Shown piece after piece: positions 31,793 through 53,501 of a DNA stretch of 64,000 nucleotides. A program made the translations under genes and the position numbers. The notes below the pieces were generated by a model, which worked only from the letters and a program-made list of their open reading frames with translations, did no database searches and was not told the DNA's origin. This DNA comes from Escherichia phage iGC_PHA_EC001. The stretch's first letter is position 1. Every line of letters starts with the position of its first letter. The stretch is from sequence record OR437326.1; one strand, written 5' to 3'.

Positions 31793-32149
31793 TTAATAGT
31801 GCACACGAATCATTTTAATACCATAACGCAGCATGGATTCTTTTGCAAGCATGAATTTATCCCCAGCAGCGGGATTAGAAGTATGCACGAAAATGGTAGG
31901 TGAACCAAAGCAAGGTTTACCAAACGCCAGAAGTTCTTCCAGGCACAGGAAAACATCATACCCATCTTGGTCAGAATCTTCACCCAAATCGTTGTCAAAA
32001 TGCCACTCGTCTACAAAACGATAACCCTTCTGCACATCATTCATGTAGCGAGAGGCAAGAAGTTCCTGTGATGTTTTAAACCAGATTGCATCTGGACAAC
32101 CATAATCTTTTGGATCACGTAAATCATCAAGCCAAATAATAGTACCCAT
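31793..32149 (-). CDS. hypothetical protein
   Basis: 118-aa ORF. Confidence 0.5.
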   Translation of the reverse strand: MGTIIWLDDLRDPKDYGCPDAIWFKTSQELLASRYMNDVQKGYRFVDEWHFDNDLGEDSDQDGYDVFLCLEELLAFGKPCFGSPTIFVHTSNPAAGDKFMLAKESMLRYGIKMIRVHY

Positions 32150-32159
32150 ATAACCTCCT

Positions 32160-32630
32160 CTAAGCTGGCATGATTAAAAAAGAACTCTCCACTTCAAAAT
32201 GCCAATCATCTACAAGCCCTGATTCCCAATCCTTCTCTTCATGGAAAGAGCAAATCCAACGGTACATACCTGGCGGTGTATTCTCAACATCTTCTGGCAA
32301 CCCGTAATCTAAAGCTGTCAAACCGTTCTCTGTAAAACTAGGATGGAGATTAGGAGCTTTCAATACAGAAACCCTGCCTCCAACATCTACAGCCACAATC
32401 CACTCTGTCATGTATGGGCTGTCATATTGAGGTTCATCAGAACCTACCTCAACAGCCTCTGTGCGTAAGATGATAATAGCCTGCTCTGTGATTGGGGCTT
32501 TGACAATATACCCGTGATCCTCAAAAAGATCGATAACCTCGAACTCATCGCCGTTTTCGACACCATAACTCTTATTCAAAGAGATAAACTTCGGGTTATC
32601 ATCGTAAGCTTTAGTTACTTTAATTCTCAT
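32160..32630 (-). CDS. hypothetical protein
   Basis: 156-aa ORF. Confidence 0.5.
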   Translation of the reverse strand: MRIKVTKAYDDNPKFISLNKSYGVENGDEFEVIDLFEDHGYIVKAPITEQAIIILRTEAVEVGSDEPQYDSPYMTEWIVAVDVGGRVSVLKAPNLHPSFTENGLTALDYGLPEDVENTPPGMYRWICSFHEEKDWESGLVDDWHFEVESSFLIMPA

Positions 32631-48798: not shown

Positions 48799-50172
48799 AT
48801 GGCAACTTTTCGTGAAAAGGTAGCAACCGTAACTTTACTGTATGGTGCTACATCAATTCGTGAAACCCAGTTCGATATTCCCCTGATCCTTACAGGTCAG
48901 AACGTAACTGGCGAAGCGATTCAATATTACTCTTCTTCCGATGCACTTTTGGAAGCAGGTTATGGATTAAATGATCCAGCGTATATTATGGCAGTCAAAC
49001 TGTTTAACGGTTTGTTCCCACCAGATCAAGTCATGGTTGGTAAGCGTGAAGTTACAAACTTTACTCTAACTCCAATCGTAGAAGATAGTGCAACTTACAC
49101 AATTACCATCAAAAATGGTACCAAGAAAAAAGAATTTAAATTCATTGCTGATGACACTGCAACTGCACAAGAGATTGTAGTTGGTCTGACTGAAATGATC
49201 AATGCAGATCTTGTTTATGGCCCACTGTTTACAGTAGCTAACAACGGCGCTGCAATGACTTTCACTCCAGTAGAAGGTAAGTTTGGTTCTATTGACAGCA
49301 CAGGTTTCACTCAAGAAACTGTCTATGCTAATGCTATTACGGAAGATATCGCTGCTCTGCATGATATTGATAGTAGCTGGTTCTGGACCCTTTCAGATTC
49401 CCATGAAACAGAAGATGTTCTAGCTTTGGCTGCATGGGTAGAAGAGAATGATAAAGTTTACTTCTTCTCTAGCTCTGAACCTGGAATTAAAACGAAAGCA
49501 GAAGATAACGTTCTGGAACGACTGAATGACCTCGGTTATAATAACACTTGCTTTGCTTTGTGGATGACCGATGCAGATTCTGTATTCCCAGAAGCGGCAG
49601 TTGTTGGTGCAATCTGTTCTCGTCAACCTGGTTTAACTACTCTTCACGGTAAAACACTGGTAGGTGTAGAGATCGAGAAACTGGATCAGACTTCGGAAAA
49701 CAATATTGTTCAACAGAACGGTAACATCTATCGTAAAGAGCATGGAACTCTGTTCTATCGTGATGGATTGATGGTTAGCGGTTTCTTTGTTGACTATGTT
49801 GTTCATGCTTTGTGGTTTAAAGCTCGCACAGAAGAATCACTGTTTACACTGTTTAAACAACAGTCTATGCTGGGTGGCGGTGTTCGTGCTACTTCAAACG
49901 GTCTGGCTTTGATTCGACAAGCTGTTCTGGCTAACCCGATCCAAGTAGGTATCCTCAACGGTTCCATCGCTAATGAAGTTGTTACTTCTGAAGAGACTGG
50001 TTTGCGTGTCGATCTGAAACCTATTGTTTATATTCCTTCTCGTGCCGATATGACTGATGCGCAAATCAATGCTCGTCTGGTAGATGGGATGAAGATTGAA
50101 TATGTTTACGCTGGCTTCTTCCATTACGTTAAAGTTCAGGTCAACGTCCTGACTAACCGTACTGCAAACTAA
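48799..50172 (+). CDS. tail sheath protein
   Basis: 457 aa immediately followed by a 159-aa tube-like gene, each with its own terminator; typical sheath size and order for contractile tails. Confidence 0.7.
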   Translation: MATFREKVATVTLLYGATSIRETQFDIPLILTGQNVTGEAIQYYSSSDALLEAGYGLNDPAYIMAVKLFNGLFPPDQVMVGKREVTNFTLTPIVEDSATYTITIKNGTKKKEFKFIADDTATAQEIVVGLTEMINADLVYGPLFTVANNGAAMTFTPVEGKFGSIDSTGFTQETVYANAITEDIAALHDIDSSWFWTLSDSHETEDVLALAAWVEENDKVYFFSSSEPGIKTKAEDNVLERLNDLGYNNTCFALWMTDADSVFPEAAVVGAICSRQPGLTTLHGKTLVGVEIEKLDQTSENNIVQQNGNIYRKEHGTLFYRDGLMVSGFFVDYVVHALWFKARTEESLFTLFKQQSMLGGGVRATSNGLALIRQAVLANPIQVGILNGSIANEVVTSEETGLRVDLKPIVYIPSRADMTDAQINARLVDGMKIEYVYAGFFHYVKVQVNVLTNRTAN

Positions 50173-50218: not shown

Positions 50219-50698
50219 ATGGATAAAATGCTTACTGGCGTAATGGCCTACGACCCATCTCAAGTTATCCTTTCATTAGGTGGTTGGGAACCGTGGGGTT
50301 TTGCGGCTGATACTAAAATCGTTATTGCTAAATCTAACGATATTATCAACCCTTATGCAGGGACTGATGGCGACGTTTCACTAGCTTTGAGTCGTAACCG
50401 TTTGGGAACACTCACAATGTCTTTGCAACGCACATCTCCAGCTAACGAAGTACTTGCAACATATGCACAAACAATGTATTCTACTCGTCAAGTAGCATTC
50501 AGCGTTTACTTGGAAGACCCACGTGGCTATTACATTAGCACGATTGGATGGATTCAAAGTCAGCCTGAAGATACTATTGGCGAAATGATTACAGAGAACC
50601 AATGGGTTATTGGTCTTAAAGATGCAAGCCTTCTGCGTAATGAAGTTGGTGTAGGTTTGAGCACCCTTAACTCAATCTCTGCTCTGACAATTCAATAA
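50219..50698 (+). CDS. tail tube protein
   Basis: 159 aa, follows sheath gene; strong terminator downstream. Confidence 0.65.
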   Translation: MDKMLTGVMAYDPSQVILSLGGWEPWGFAADTKIVIAKSNDIINPYAGTDGDVSLALSRNRLGTLTMSLQRTSPANEVLATYAQTMYSTRQVAFSVYLEDPRGYYISTIGWIQSQPEDTIGEMITENQWVIGLKDASLLRNEVGVGLSTLNSISALTIQ

Positions 50699-50705
50699 TA
50701 AATAA

Positions 50706-50725
50706 AGGGCAGAAATGCCCTTTTT
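50706..50725 (+). terminator. rho-independent terminator after tube gene
   Basis: GGGCA GAAA TGCCC hairpin followed by TTTTT. Confidence 0.7.
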
Positions 50726-50743
50726 ATCATTAGAGAGGAAAAT

Positions 50744-51226
50744 ATGTCACAAGAACAAGATAACACAATTCAAAAATATGCTCGACCAGAAGAAGTAGTT
50801 GAGATTCCGTTAGATGGAAACAGATCTGTTACTTTCCGTATTATGAAGTGGAGTCCATCTAAAGTGTTTGACAGGATTCCAGAATTAGGTAGTGTTCTGG
50901 TTGTTCCTATGACTATGTATAGCACAGCAACAATGTCCGCAGACGAAGACCTTGAGTCGCGTATTGCTATGGCACTGATCCAACTTTTTGCAGGTTTGGA
51001 AGAAAAGAATTTAACTGTCTTTTTGCGTAAAATTTTAGATGAGGTTTATACTCAAGACGGTTATAACGTTGCAGAAAATTTTGATGAATTATTTATGGCT
51101 CACCCAGAACTAGTGTTAGATCTTACTGCTAAAGTTCTGGAGGTAAACTACGGCCCTTTTTTCAAACGAGGTTTCGGAAAACTGTTCACACAGCTTCAGG
51201 CGATGACGAGTTTAGCAGCAAATTAA
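50744..51226 (+). CDS. tail assembly chaperone (gpG-like, unshifted product)
   Basis: 160 aa between tube and tape-measure genes; contains slippery site near 3' end. Confidence 0.55.
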   Translation: MSQEQDNTIQKYARPEEVVEIPLDGNRSVTFRIMKWSPSKVFDRIPELGSVLVVPMTMYSTATMSADEDLESRIAMALIQLFAGLEEKNLTVFLRKILDEVYTQDGYNVAENFDELFMAHPELVLDLTAKVLEVNYGPFFKRGFGKLFTQLQAMTSLAAN

Positions 51227-51492
51227 CACCTGCGATTGAACATGCTATCGACATAGCAACGAAAACCCTTACTTTGAAGTGGTATGAGGTTATTCTTTGC
51301 AAAGTCGTTAAAGATACCTCGGAAACACTGAAAACATTGGATAACTACGGTGTAGATTATCTTTTAAAACTATATGAGTATTTAACATACGAAGAGTATG
51401 TTGAAGCCATGTATGTTAAAGACACTTCAATAAAGAGAAAACATCAAAACCAGACAAATAAAATGTCAGATTTGTTTAAGAAACTTGTTTAA
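50744..51492 (+). CDS. tail assembly chaperone frameshift fusion product (gpGT-like), via -1 shift at 51157-51163
   Basis: inference from frame continuity and conserved G/GT architecture upstream of tape-measure genes. Confidence 0.45.
51157..51163 (+). promoter_or_regulatory. candidate -1 programmed ribosomal frameshift slippery heptamer T TTT TTC
   Basis: heptamer in zero frame of 50744-51226 (cct ttt ttc); -1 frame is open from 51133 to 51492 and contains the track ORF 51274-51492. Confidence 0.5.
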
Positions 51493-51512: not shown

Positions 51513-53501
51513 TTGTTAGAAATTAACGCCTCCAGAATTAGTAACGTGGTTACGTTTAAGGTGGACAAGAACAGTCTCAAGGAAGCAAAAGATGCCGTGT
51601 TGAGTGTTCAGAAGTTTGCAAATAAAATGCAACCCACTATGAACATGACCAAGTTTAGACAACAAATGAAAGAGATTGAGCGTGAACTTAAGAAAGCTCA
51701 AACTCAAAGTCAAAAACCTATGCGAGCACCTACTCCCGCTGGAGCGGGTGCTCCTGTAGGCGGATCTGGTAGACCTAGAACTCCTAAAACCCCGCAAGGA
51801 AGAGAAGAAGAAAAAGCTCGTAAAGCTGCTGAACGCGAAGCTAAAGCAGCAGCACGTAGGGAAGATTTAGGTAATCTTCGTTTGCAGAACTTTAACTATC
51901 GAGCAAGAGCATTTAGTAAAGCTAGTCCTGGCGCTATGCAAGAAGCTAGAGACGTTATGGGTAAAGCTGTAGAGCAATACAAAAAGGGTGAAATAACTCT
52001 TCAACGTATGAACCAAGCTCTTGCTCACCAGTTGGATGCTTTACGCAGATCTCATCGTGAAAAGAATGCTGAAATAGAAGACGAGGTTCGCGGTCGTCGC
52101 CGTATTCGTAGAGAGCTAGAAGCAGAAGCTAAAATGCGTATACGTATGCGAAATCGTGAACTTAGAGATATAGAACGCAACCGTAAGCGTGAATTAGCTC
52201 AACAAAAACGTGATCGTGATCGTCGATATGGACAATTAAAAGAAGGTGCAGCAGGTCTTAATCCACGCATGATTGCATCCTCTTTGATCGGTGCTGGACT
52301 GTTTGCAGGTGGTTCTGTAGTTGGTAACACTTTGATGAATACTAACGAAAGAATTAAACTTGTAAGCCGTGGCGCTGAAAACGTTCAGACAAACGCCAAC
52401 TCTATTTTAACGATGACAGCTTGGGGTGAACAGAACGGTGTAGACTCTGCAAATATTATTAAGTCAATAGATAATATTAAAGACGTTCGTGAACGTCTTG
52501 GTAATACAGTTTTAGCCTCAAAATGGAATGAGAAAGAAGGGAAGTGGAAAGGCGGTGATAATGGCATAAATGACATTATGAACTTGTTTGGATGGAATCC
52601 AGAACAGCTTAAACCTTTACAGAACGATCCTTTAGCTTTTATTCAGGCTACTGTTAATGAGGGTGAGCGTCGAGGTATGAACTCTGCTCAAATCGGGCGA
52701 CTTCTTGAAAACCTTGGTGACGACCTTATGCACTACCAACGAATGTTTAGTAAAAACGGCGAAGGATACAATGAAACATTGAAAATGCTTCAAAGAACAG
52801 GTGCAACATTAACTCAAGAACAAATAGACGCTTCTAAAGAGTTTACTCGTTTTGCTGCAACAGTTCAACTTGTAGGTCAAGGTATGCAGAACCATTTCTT
52901 AGAAGGTTTTGTAAAAGCTTTACCTAAAGATGATTCTTGGTTGGATAACGTTAAAGTGCTAGATCAGTTTGCCAAAGATTTAGGTGAAGAACTCGGTAAG
53001 ACAACAGTTCAATTAGGAGGTTTTGCTAAAGAATTGGGAGATGGTTTCGGATCTTTTACCAATTGGCTTAAAGAAACATTCCCAGATACATTCGGAGACA
53101 ACACAGATCCTAATAAATCCCTGGCCCAAAAAGCATACGAGGCAACGCAAAGTGGAGACAGCAATCCTGTAGCAGATTGGTTGTACAATTTAACAGGTAT
53201 TGATACACAAGATATTGGTCGTATGTGGAGAGGAGAACAAACAAGGACACGTGCTTTTGGATTTGGTAATCCTCTTGAAGATTTACGTGAATCAGCCTAT
53301 ACACCTAACGTAAGTTTGGCTCGTAATCAACCTGTTGTTGAGAATACGGTAGCAATACCAAGTGATCTTATCAAAGTTACGATCAGCCCTTCTTCAGAGT
53401 TTGGAAATATTCTTGATGCAAGAATTCAAAATAGCGGAAATAGCATTTTCCAACGTTTATCTCTTTCAACTCTAAGTGGACAATCTAACACTGGTGGTTA
53501 A
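51513..53501 (+). CDS. tail tape measure protein
   Basis: 662 aa; long Arg/Glu/Lys-rich coiled-coil segment, Gly-rich hydrophobic segment (LIGAGLFAGGSVVG); position after chaperones; probable TTG start. Confidence 0.7.
   Translation: MLEINASRISNVVTFKVDKNSLKEAKDAVLSVQKFANKMQPTMNMTKFRQQMKEIERELKKAQTQSQKPMRAPTPAGAGAPVGGSGRPRTPKTPQGREEEKARKAAEREAKAAARREDLGNLRLQNFNYRARAFSKASPGAMQEARDVMGKAVEQYKKGEITLQRMNQALAHQLDALRRSHREKNAEIEDEVRGRRRIRRELEAEAKMRIRMRNRELRDIERNRKRELAQQKRDRDRRYGQLKEGAAGLNPRMIASSLIGAGLFAGGSVVGNTLMNTNERIKLVSRGAENVQTNANSILTMTAWGEQNGVDSANIIKSIDNIKDVRERLGNTVLASKWNEKEGKWKGGDNGINDIMNLFGWNPEQLKPLQNDPLAFIQATVNEGERRGMNSAQIGRLLENLGDDLMHYQRMFSKNGEGYNETLKMLQRTGATLTQEQIDASKEFTRFAATVQLVGQGMQNHFLEGFVKALPKDDSWLDNVKVLDQFAKDLGEELGKTTVQLGGFAKELGDGFGSFTNWLKETFPDTFGDNTDPNKSLAQKAYEATQSGDSNPVADWLYNLTGIDTQDIGRMWRGEQTRTRAFGFGNPLEDLRESAYTPNVSLARNQPVVENTVAIPSDLIKVTISPSSEFGNILDARIQNSGNSIFQRLSLSTLSGQSNTGG

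What the first reader, a model, noticed from the sequence alone, without database searches (positions are those of the whole stretch)
50744..51492. Candidate -1 programmed frameshift (T TTT TTC) joining two tail-chaperone ORFs
Near the end of the 160-codon chaperone ORF the zero-frame codons cct-ttt-ttc form the heptamer T TTT TTC (51157-51163). The -1 frame is open from 51133 through 51492 and contains the downstream 72-codon ORF. This is the conserved G/GT arrangement upstream of tape-measure genes. Here the shift would produce a fusion of about 250 residues.
Basis: partly seen in the sequence, partly recalled or inferred. Interest (0 to 1): 0.45.

Follow-up and report, generated by a model that had tools for sequence, protein, structure and literature searches.

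The report
Tail-chaperone G/GT -1 frameshift site
This is the usual phage trick of making a short and a long tail-assembly chaperone from one gene by letting a few ribosomes slip back one base; it is well supported by comparison with relatives but missing from every public annotation of this phage group that I examined.

Summary
The window is a phAPEC8-like coliphage (Phapecoctavirus, Stephanstirmvirinae). Between the tail-tube gene and the tape-measure gene lies a 160-codon tail assembly chaperone gene (50744-51226, Pfam Phage_TAC_15). It carries T TTT TTC in frame at 51157-51163, and a second in-frame heptamer, C CCT TTT (51154-51160), overlaps it. The -1 frame is open from 51133 to 51492, and a shift gives a 249-residue fusion.

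Site and layout are kept in 16 distinct relatives, down to about 30% chaperone identity, including rV5-like Vequintavirinae. There the codon before the site encodes Cys instead of Pro but keeps its third-base T. Synonymous variability falls from 0.44 to 0.11 at the site. The -1 frame evolves as a protein (pS 0.5-0.8, pN 0.06-0.4) upstream of any possible start codon in three relatives.

I found no conserved downstream RNA structure. A Shine-Dalgarno-like GGAGGT lies 12 nt upstream. None of the 16 records read annotates a join, and no fused protein of about 250 aa turned up. A December 2025 paper proposes the same recoding in sister families. Verdict: a new member of a known kind, of low to moderate interest.

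The parts
48799..50172 (+). Tail sheath gene (context)
   Evidence: phrog_205 tail sheath at E = 2.9e-100 and Pfam DUF3383. RefSeq calls the ESCO13 orthologue 'tail sheath'.
50219..50698 (+). Tail tube / virion structural protein gene (context; presumed partner of the T domain)
   Evidence: phrog_280 at E = 4.1e-35 and Pfam KPP10_Orf10. Annotated as a putative tail tube protein in phage SKA64.
50704..50723 (+). Terminator-like hairpin followed by a T run, between the tube gene and the chaperone gene
   Evidence: Consensus scan: 8-pair stem, 4-nt loop, then TTATCATT. Its function was not tested.
50744..51226 (+). Tail assembly chaperone gene 'G' (TAC-N), 160 codons, zero frame
   Evidence: Pfam PF21822 Phage_TAC_15 at E = 1.3e-23 and phrog_3840 at E = 2.8e-55. 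The AF2 model matches phage tail/tape-measure chaperones in BFVD. A GAGAGGA ribosome-binding site sits at 50733-50739.
51139..51144 (+). Shine-Dalgarno-like GGAGGT, 12 nt upstream of T TTT TTC and 9 nt upstream of C CCT TTT; candidate 5' stimulator
   Evidence: Read from the sequence. The Glu codon here is GAG in 14 of 15 distinct relatives that have Glu at this position, although GAG makes up only 27% of Glu codons in the window. The dip in synonymous variability starts about 30 nt upstream of the site. The spacing falls in the 9-14 nt range reported for -1 stimulators (PMC5009743). Its function is an inference.
51154..51163 (+). Slip site C CCT TTT TTC: two overlapping in-frame heptamers, C CCT TTT (51154-51160) and T TTT TTC (51157-51163)
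   Evidence: The frame was checked. The site is invariant in 11 distinct Stephanstirmvirinae sequences, and T TTT TTC is also kept in 5 Vequintavirinae. Both motifs belong to the class H_HH.U_UU.Y, listed among the most efficient in E. coli (PMC4066793).
51163..51226 (+). Dual-coding overlap: G C-terminus in the zero frame and the start of the GT linker (QTRFRKT...) in the -1 frame
   Evidence: GGTTTCGG (G-F-G in one frame, R-F-R in the other) is conserved in both frames. Variation here is highest at zero-frame third positions.
51163..51492 (+). -1 frame segment 'T': 109 codons plus stop, containing the listed 72-codon TTG ORF 51274-51492
   Evidence: It matches phrog_16039 at E = 9.9e-45 and phrog_10409, the rV5-type T ORF, at E = 2.4e-9. 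pS far exceeds pN both upstream and downstream of the TTG.
51513..53501 (+). Tape measure protein gene (TTG start; context)
   Evidence: phrog_16051 tail length tape measure protein, 1243 bits; RefSeq annotation of ESCO13.

Best explanation
The locus encodes two tail assembly chaperones from one start codon.

Most ribosomes read 50744-51226 and release the 160-residue chaperone G (also called TAC-N). A minority slip back one base on C CCU UUU UUC (51154-51163), with tRNA-Phe, and possibly tRNA-Pro, re-pairing in the -1 frame. These ribosomes continue from 51163 to 51492 and make a 249-residue fusion GT (TAC-NC) with the junction ...VNYGPFF|QTRFRK.... Both heptamers give the same protein.

By analogy with lambda gpG/gpGT, the shared G part would coat the tape measure protein encoded at 51513-53501. 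The T part would recruit the tail tube protein encoded at 50219-50698. The fixed slip frequency would set the G:GT ratio. Neither protein is expected in the virion.

The slip seems to rely on the slippery run itself. A Shine-Dalgarno-like GGAGGT 12 nt upstream may help. No downstream RNA structure appears to be involved.

Shown here: the anatomy, the family assignment, and the conservation and coding signatures. Inferred: that slippage actually occurs, its frequency, the role of the SD-like element, and the binding partners.
For: 1. Anatomy. The heptamer is in frame, the -1 ORF is open from 51133 to 51492, and the fusion is 249 aa.

2. Family. The gene is Pfam Phage_TAC_15 at E = 1.3e-23 and phrog_3840. 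It lies between sheath and tube genes on one side and the tape measure gene on the other. The AF2 model matches phage tail or tape-measure chaperones, including that of Citrobacter phage Moogle.

3. Conservation within the subfamily. CCCTTTTTTCAA plus a 102-114 codon -1 ORF is present in all 22 related loci, down to 32% G identity.

4. Conservation beyond it. T TTT TTC with the same AACTAYGGC context and a 118-128 codon -1 ORF is found in rV5, PVP-SE1, phiTE, FENT2 and UPEC06. There the preceding codon is TGT (Cys) rather than CCT (Pro), so the amino acid changed but the third-base T stayed. Likewise the codon before that is GGC, GCC or TCC: always a third-base C.

5. Synonymous constraint. 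Pairwise synonymous difference falls from a gene-wide 0.44 to 0.11 in the windows covering 51140-51163.

6. Coding signal in the -1 frame. Codons 21-57, which lie after the G stop, have pS 0.53-0.80 against pN 0.06-0.40. In L014, L018 and L022 the first ATG/GTG/TTG in that frame is at codon 58-66, inside the conserved T domain.

7. No independent start signal. There is no SD before the TTG at 51274 (upstream sequence GCAACGAAAACCCTTACT). Annotators chose inconsistent starts, including ATT, or left the ORF out altogether.

8. Why the last base is C. Changing it to T would create TAA in the -1 frame, which explains its invariance.

9. Literature. U_UU.U_UU.C and C_CC.U_UU.U are among the efficient E. 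coli -1 motifs (PMC4066793). G/GT frameshifting is widespread in long-tailed phages (PMC5009743). The same recoding at GTTTTT has been proposed for the related Vandenendeviridae and Andersonviridae (PMC12846349).
Against: No experimental product is known.

No significant or conserved downstream stem-loop or pseudoknot was found. The z-scores were -0.30 and -0.77, RNAalifold predicted zero pairs over 10 sequences, and there was no Rfam match. The efficiency may therefore be low. This is, however, also the case for lambda G/GT.

A run of six T could in principle produce the same product through RNA polymerase slippage.

Much of the local nucleotide conservation downstream of the site can be explained by dual coding.

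The relatives compared share ancestry, so counts of sequences overstate the number of independent observations.
Confidence: 0.85

Rival explanations
1. The GT fusion is made, but by transcriptional slippage. RNA polymerase adds one extra U on the T6 run (51157-51162), and ordinary translation of that minority of mRNAs gives the same 249-residue protein.
For: The site is a homopolymeric T6, and a U7 transcript encodes exactly ...GPFFQTR.... The conserved third-base T of the preceding codon also lengthens the run from 5 to 6, so that observation fits both mechanisms. No 3' RNA structure of the kind that usually accompanies ribosomal -1 sites was found.
Against: The bacterial transcriptional slippage described in the review occurs on runs of about 9 A or T (PMC5009743). 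Here the run is exactly six in all 16 distinct relatives. The run sits in the canonical X XXY YYZ register, and the motif is a measured ribosomal -1 site in E. coli (PMC4066793). The conserved C CC upstream and the SD-like element at the right spacing for a -1 ribosomal stimulator have no role in polymerase slippage.
Confidence: 0.08
2. There is no recoding. The downstream ORF is a separate small gene, started at TTG 51274 or at ATT 51235 by reinitiation after the G stop, and the heptamer is merely how Pro-Phe-Phe happens to be encoded.
For: Public records annotate two separate genes. PHROGs holds the downstream ORF as its own family, phrog_16039. In-frame heptamers are common, 68 in the window. 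Pro-Phe-Phe is conserved as protein within the subfamily.
Against: In three relatives the -1 frame has no ATG/GTG/TTG until codon 58-66, inside the conserved T domain. pS far exceeds pN upstream of the TTG. There is no SD before the TTG. The codon equivalent to the ATT is ATA, GTT or CTT in relatives. The -1 frame is open across the 21-26 codon overlap in every relative, although only 6% of such stretches are open by chance. Synonymous sites are frozen at the heptamer. The third-base T is kept across a Pro-to-Cys change.
Confidence: 0.03
3. The downstream frame is not expressed at all. It would be a non-coding spacer between the chaperone gene and the tape measure gene that happens to be open.
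For: Several records leave a 286-nt unannotated gap here.
Against: There is a clear codon-position pattern, with pS 0.66-0.96 against pN 0.07-0.39 over T codons 37-90. The protein motifs (W-Y/W-D, SET..SLD.Y..DYL) are conserved across two subfamilies. The segment also matches PHROG families.
Confidence: 0.01

Closest known systems
Phage lambda gpG/gpGT tail assembly chaperones (-1 frameshift at G GGA AAG; Levin et al. 1993; Xu et al. 2004, 2013, 2014, as summarised in PMC5009743)
   Same: Two overlapping ORFs lie between the major tail/tube gene and the tape measure gene. [quoted passage not shown] I found no conserved 3' RNA stimulator at the site in this window.
   Different: The slippery sequence is different (C CCU UUU UUC, decoded by tRNA-Phe and tRNA-Pro, rather than tRNA-Lys). 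The chaperone belongs to a different sequence family (Phage_TAC_15). The host phage is a 150-kb contractile-tailed virus. There is a candidate 5' SD-like element. Here the slip site lies 23 codons before the G stop.
Proposed TAC-N/TAC-NC -1 frameshift at GTTTTT in Vandenendeviridae (Pakpunavirus, phage Adele) and Andersonviridae (Mooglevirus) (PMC12846349, December 2025)
   Same: The virion module is evolutionarily related (sheath and tube families DUF3383 and KPP10_Orf10). A poly-T slip motif lies near the 3' end of TAC-N. The downstream 'hypothetical protein' is really the C-terminal part of the long isoform. The -1 frame is uninterrupted in all relatives. The evidence is comparative only.
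   Different: That paper's frameshift analysis covered Vandenendeviridae and Andersonviridae, not Stephanstirmvirinae or Vequintavirinae. Here the motif is fully resolved as T TTT TTC, in Stephanstirmvirinae with an extra overlapping C CCT TTT, and it is supported by synonymous-site and pS/pN measurements.
Phage T7 gene 10A/10B and the U_UU.U_UU.C sites of IS elements
   Same: Poly-U -1 slip sites decoded by tRNA-Phe in E. coli (PMC4066793, PMC12846349, PMC5009743).
   Different: The genes and biological purpose differ. The review reports that T7 gene 10 uses a distant 3' element; nothing comparable was found here.
T4-like phage tail assembly chaperones (Vladimirov, Gautam and Davidson 2022, as described in PMC10885494)
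   Same: Short and long chaperone isoforms in a contractile-tailed phage.
   Different: As described there, some T4-like phages carry a short gene and a separate fused long gene, without frameshifting. Here no fused gene of about 250 aa was found among the 41 homologues.

Membership tests
G/GT-type tail assembly chaperone pair with programmed frameshift (Xu et al. 2004 class) | Two overlapping ORFs located between the major tail/tube gene and the tape measure gene | tested here: met
   Gene order is sheath 48799-50172, tube 50219-50698, G 50744-51226, T frame to 51492, tape measure 51513-53501.
G/GT-type tail assembly chaperone pair with programmed frameshift (Xu et al. 2004 class) | [quoted passage not shown] | tested here: met
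   T TTT TTC at 51157-51163 and C CCT TTT at 51154-51160 are both in frame, 23-24 codons before the G stop. The -1 frame opens at 51133.
G/GT-type tail assembly chaperone pair with programmed frameshift (Xu et al. 2004 class) | The slip site and two-frame layout are conserved among diverged relatives | tested here: met
   They are present in 16 distinct sequences from Stephanstirmvirinae and Vequintavirinae, and synonymous variability dips to 0.11 at the site.
G/GT-type tail assembly chaperone pair with programmed frameshift (Xu et al. 2004 class) | The downstream frame lacks its own translation start and is coding right from the shift site | tested here: met
   Three relatives have no ATG/GTG/TTG before codon 58-66. 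There is no SD before the TTG at 51274. pS exceeds pN upstream of the candidate starts. The four codons between the G stop and the ATT at 51235 are too few to test on their own.
G/GT-type tail assembly chaperone pair with programmed frameshift (Xu et al. 2004 class) | The fusion protein is actually produced at a low, fixed ratio to the short form | not testable with these tools
   This needs a reporter assay, western blot or mass spectrometry of infected cells.
G/GT-type tail assembly chaperone pair with programmed frameshift (Xu et al. 2004 class) | The G part binds the tape measure protein, the T part binds the tail tube protein, and both are absent from virions | not testable with these tools
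   Inferred from lambda (PMC5009743).
Pfam PF21822 Phage_TAC_15 / phrog_3840 (tail assembly chaperone) | Sequence match above the curated threshold | tested here: met
   84.3 bits against a cut-off of 22, E = 1.3e-23, profile positions 3-125 of 127. phrog_3840 at E = 2.8e-55.
Pfam PF21822 Phage_TAC_15 / phrog_3840 (tail assembly chaperone) | Fold similar to a solved tail assembly chaperone structure | tested here: inconclusive
   There is no PDB sequence hit and no PDB fold hit with E below 0.7. The model has a mean pLDDT of 73.6. Against predicted viral structures it matches Erwinia phage Hena1 (2.9e-7), a Rheinheimera phage 'tail assembly chaperone' (3.8e-6) and the Moogle 'tape measure chaperone' (0.026, probability 0.99).
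Structured -1 PRF signal (slip site plus 3' stem-loop or pseudoknot, as in dnaX or IS911) | A conserved, stable RNA structure 5-9 nt downstream of the heptamer | tested here: not met
   MFE z-scores were -0.30 and -0.77. RNAalifold on 10 relatives predicted no pairs. There was no Rfam match.
SD-stimulated -1 PRF (dnaX or IS type 5' stimulator) | An SD-like sequence 9-14 nt upstream of the shift site, conserved beyond what the protein needs | tested here: inconclusive
   GGAGGT at 51139-51144 lies 12 nt upstream of the heptamer. AGGT is kept in 13 of 16 distinct sequences and weakened in three: AGAT in L007 and L027, AAGT in L028. Synonymous constraint extends about 30 nt upstream. No functional test was possible.

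The most novel reading that the evidence does not exclude
The slip site may be more than a plain heptamer. In that reading it is a three-codon decamer, C CCU UUU UUC, which lets the E-, P- and A-site tRNAs all re-pair in the -1 frame. It would be driven by a 5' Shine-Dalgarno-like element instead of any 3' structure. Its T TTT TTC core would be one orthologous nucleotide site, frozen since before Stephanstirmvirinae and Vequintavirinae diverged, and probably also Andersonviridae and Vandenendeviridae, while the surrounding proteins drifted to about 30% identity. That would make it one of the most deeply conserved recoding sites in phages and a natural model for structure-independent -1 frameshifting in E. 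coli.
Probability: 0.25. Interest if true: 0.4.

Novelty: new member of a known kind. Interest (0 to 1): 0.25.

Why it matters
**Annotation.** At least 135 deposited genomes in the phage collection match this locus. In every record I read, the T segment is an orphan 'hypothetical protein' with an arbitrary start (TTG, ATT and others) or is missing. A single joined CDS for a 249-residue long chaperone isoform would correct this.

**Biology.** The result extends the G/GT rule to two further subfamilies of large contractile-tailed phages that are being developed for therapy. It also shows that the same T TTT TTC site is shared with rV5-like phages.

**Mechanism.** A poly-U site with no detectable 3' structure and a possible 5' SD-like element is a convenient natural test case. 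The concept itself is textbook, so a specialist would not be surprised.

Tried and rejected
- **Downstream RNA stimulator.** Single-sequence folds of 51164-51260 and 51130-51330 were no more stable than shuffles. RNAalifold on 10 relatives gave no pairs. An Rfam E-value scan gave only two sub-threshold sRNA hits, both outside the site. I rejected a structured signal.
- **Fused homologues.** I searched 5.8 billion proteins with the 249-aa fusion. All 41 hits were chaperones of about 160 aa, none fused.
- **Solved structures.** phmmer of the fusion against PDB found nothing. Foldseek of the G model against PDB found nothing below E = 0.7.
- **Annotated joins.** None was found in the 16 records inspected.
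- **Primary paper on T4-like chaperones.** Vladimirov et al. 2022 is not held in the library, so I used second-hand descriptions.
- **A second candidate site.** The only other long -1 extension in the window is T TTT TTA at 32181-32175 on the minus strand, 44 codons. It is an off-frame read across the next gene, which has its own strong ribosome-binding site, so I dismissed it as chance.

Full report
**What the window is.** The region is 99.5-99.9% identical to phAPEC8-like coliphages such as ESCO13, vB_EcoM-P3322 and tuntematon (genus Phapecoctavirus, subfamily Stephanstirmvirinae). These are myoviruses of about 150 kb. The local gene order on the + strand is:
- tail sheath, 48799-50172 (phrog_205, DUF3383);
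- tail tube / virion structural protein, 50219-50698 (phrog_280, KPP10_Orf10);
- the 160-codon ORF 50744-51226;
- a short ORF ending at 51492;
- the tape measure gene, 51513-53501 (phrog_16051).

**Check of the observation.**
- Bases 51157-51163 are TTTTTTC, and 51157 is a codon third position, so the zero frame reads CC-T TTT TTC.
- The -1 frame has its last upstream stop at 51130-51132, is open from 51133, and ends at the TAA at 51490-51492. It contains the TTG ORF 51274-51492.
- A -1 shift gives 140 + 109 = 249 residues with the junction ...VLEVNYGPFF|QTRFRKTV....
- One addition: the preceding GG-C CCT TTT is itself an in-frame X XXY YYZ heptamer. The site is therefore the decamer C CCT TTT TTC. 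A slip on either heptamer gives the same protein.

**Is it more than chance?**
- A heptamer alone is not. A crude set of 70 ORFs in the window has 68 in-frame heptamers in 17,214 codons.
- Only the pair in this gene opens a -1 extension of more than 100 codons, running 266 nt beyond the zero-frame stop.
- The runner-up, T TTT TTA at 32181-32175 on the minus strand, has 44 codons. It is an off-frame read of the next gene, which has its own GAGGAGG ribosome-binding site.
- A -1 frame stretch of 21 codons, the length of the overlap, is open in only 6% of positions.

**Identity of the upstream ORF.** It matches Pfam PF21822 Phage_TAC_15 (84.3 bits against a cut-off of 22, E = 1.3e-23) and phrog_3840 'tail assembly chaperone' (E = 2.8e-55). 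An AlphaFold2 model built from 18 homologues is of moderate quality, with mean pLDDT 73.6. It has no PDB counterpart. Against predicted viral structures it matches Erwinia phage Hena1, a Rheinheimera phage 'tail assembly chaperone' and the 'tape measure chaperone' of Citrobacter phage Moogle. The -1 segment matches phrog_16039, and more weakly phrog_10409. The latter is the family given to the equivalent ORF of the rV5-like phage FENT2.

**Comparative evidence within the subfamily.**
- I collected relatives from the annotated phage collection and from IMG/VR.
- In all 22 related loci the string CCCTTTTTTCAA is present in the same frame and is followed by a -1 ORF of 102-114 codons. These loci give 11 distinct sequences besides the window's own and reach down to 32% chaperone identity.
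- One distant Klebsiella phage, KP13-16, matched the query at the DNA level only across 51128-51183, which is the slip-site region.

**Comparative evidence beyond the subfamily.**
- A tblastn search showed that the chaperone family extends to Vequintavirinae.
- In rV5, PVP-SE1, phiTE, FENT2 and UPEC06 the same AAC TAY GGC xxT TTT TTC context is kept, with -1 ORFs of 118-128 codons and a recognisably homologous T domain.
- There the codon before the run is TGT (Cys) rather than CCT (Pro). The amino acid changed but the third-base T, the X of the heptamer, did not.
- Likewise the codon before that is GGC, GCC or TCC (Gly, Ala or Ser), always ending in C.
- The final C of the heptamer is explained by the -1 frame: a T there would create TAA.

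**Selection signatures.**
- Among 12 distinct Stephanstirmvirinae sequences, the fraction of same-amino-acid codon pairs that differ averages 0.44 over the gene. It stays between 0.26 and 0.64 everywhere except around the site.
- It falls to 0.11 in the windows covering 51140-51163. It begins to drop about 30 nt upstream and recovers by about 51190.
- In the overlap (51163-51226) variation is highest at zero-frame third positions, so the G C-terminus dominates there. The -1 reading there is a partly low-complexity linker after a conserved Q-x-R-F-R.
- After the G stop, the -1 frame shows a clean coding pattern. For codons 21-57, pS is 0.53-0.80 and pN 0.06-0.40. This is the same as for codons 37-90.

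**No independent start.**
- In L014, L018 and L022 the first ATG/GTG/TTG in the -1 frame after the slip site is at codon 58, 63 and 66. That is inside the conserved W..D..L....SET..SLD.Y..DYL core, so those residues cannot be reached by ordinary initiation.
- In the window the 18 nt before the TTG at 51274 contain no Shine-Dalgarno sequence. The chaperone gene, by contrast, has GAGAGGA and the tape measure gene has GAGGAA.
- Annotators have disagreed accordingly. Choices include an ATT start in RefSeq ESCO13, various internal starts, and no gene at all in tuntematon and SKA64.
- None of the records inspected has a joined CDS. A search of 5.8 billion proteins with the fusion returned only chaperones of about 160 aa.

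**Stimulatory elements.**
- There is no significant or conserved 3' structure and no Rfam family.
- Upstream, GGAGGT (51139-51144) lies 12 nt before T TTT TTC and 9 nt before C CCT TTT. This is inside the 9-14 nt range given for SD-like stimulators of -1 shifts (PMC5009743).
- The Glu codon that forms it is GAG in 14 of the 15 distinct sequences with Glu at this position, although GAG is only 27% of Glu codons in the window. The element is weakened in three relatives.
- The synonymous constraint upstream of the site lies where the -1 frame is closed, so dual coding cannot explain it. I treat the SD-like element as a plausible but untested stimulator.

**Mechanism.** The best explanation is a programmed -1 ribosomal frameshift that yields G (160 aa) and GT (249 aa). 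Sharma et al. list H_HH.U_UU.Y heptamers among the most efficient in E. coli. That class includes both U_UU.U_UU.C and C_CC.U_UU.U. Each of the two shifts at more than 0.1% without any stimulator and is under-represented in E. coli genes (PMC4066793). By analogy with lambda, G and the G part of GT would bind the tape measure protein and the T part would recruit the tube protein (PMC5009743). These roles are inferred.

**Rivals.**
- Transcriptional slippage on the T6 run would give the same protein and cannot be excluded from sequence alone. However, the slippage described for bacteria uses runs of about nine, and the run here is never longer than six. The register, the upstream CCC and the SD-like element all point to the ribosome. 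I give it about 0.08.
- Independent initiation of the T ORF (about 0.03) and a non-coding spacer (about 0.01) are contradicted.

**Relation to what is known.**
- G/GT frameshifting is a classic, widely conserved feature of long-tailed phages (Levin 1993; Xu 2004; reviewed in PMC5009743).
- A paper from December 2025 argues, on similar comparative grounds, for a -1 frameshift at an invariant GTTTTT in the chaperone genes of Vandenendeviridae and Andersonviridae. It names Stephanstirmvirinae and Vequintavirinae as relatives of those families but did not analyse their chaperone loci (PMC12846349).
- Literature searches found no description of this frameshift in phAPEC8-like phages.

**Verdict.** The finding is real and correctly interpreted. 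It is an unannotated member of a well-known kind of recoding. Its value lies mainly in annotation and in extending one shared T TTT TTC site across several families of large myoviruses. Interest is about 0.25.

Noticed in passing
window 50704-50723 (+ strand), followed by a T run to about 50727: A terminator-like hairpin (AAAGGGCA GAAA TGCCCTTT, then TTATC) sits in the 45-nt gap between the tail tube gene and the chaperone gene. It could lower expression of the chaperone and tape measure genes relative to the sheath and tube genes. rV5 and phiTE instead have annotated terminators after the T ORF.
   Followed up: partly
window 51125-51156: Synonymous variability is already depressed about 30 nt upstream of the slip site, where the -1 frame is closed, so dual coding cannot explain it. 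The stretch includes the SD-like GGAGGT, an invariant AAC (Asn) and a nearly invariant GGC (Gly), although GGC makes up only 12% of Gly codons in the window.
   Followed up: partly
window 51170-51177 (GGTTTCGG): This octamer just downstream of the slip site is invariant in 11 of 12 Stephanstirmvirinae sequences and nearly so in Vequintavirinae. It encodes G-F-G in the zero frame and R-F-R in the -1 frame. Dual coding probably explains it, but a role in the shift was not excluded.
   Followed up: partly
L001 4036-4293 (NC_047770.1 ESCO13), equivalent to window 51235-51492: RefSeq annotates the downstream ORF with an ATT start. Other records use different starts or omit the gene, for example tuntematon and SKA64, which leave a 286-nt gap. 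This inconsistency is what one expects when a frameshifted C-terminal segment is treated as a separate gene.
   Followed up: yes
phage collection hits H11, H64, H83, H103: Records named as Acinetobacter (vB_AbaM_ABPW7, 99.5% identical), Campylobacter (C3, A141) and Pseudomonas (PsgM04F) phages carry this enterobacterial phage module. The host labels look doubtful, through contamination or mis-assignment.
   Followed up: no
window 51513 (TTG start of the tape measure gene): The tape measure gene appears to start at TTG, preceded by GAGGAA. The TTG and its context are kept in the six Stephanstirmvirinae relatives whose aligned segment reaches it; the KP13-16 segment ends before this point.
   Followed up: no
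window 32175-32181 (minus strand), ORF 32160-32630: An in-frame T TTT TTA lies 7 codons before the stop, with a 44-codon -1 extension. The extension is not in the frame of the next gene (ATG at 32149, with its own GAGGAGG ribosome-binding site), so I judged it to be chance.
   Followed up: yes
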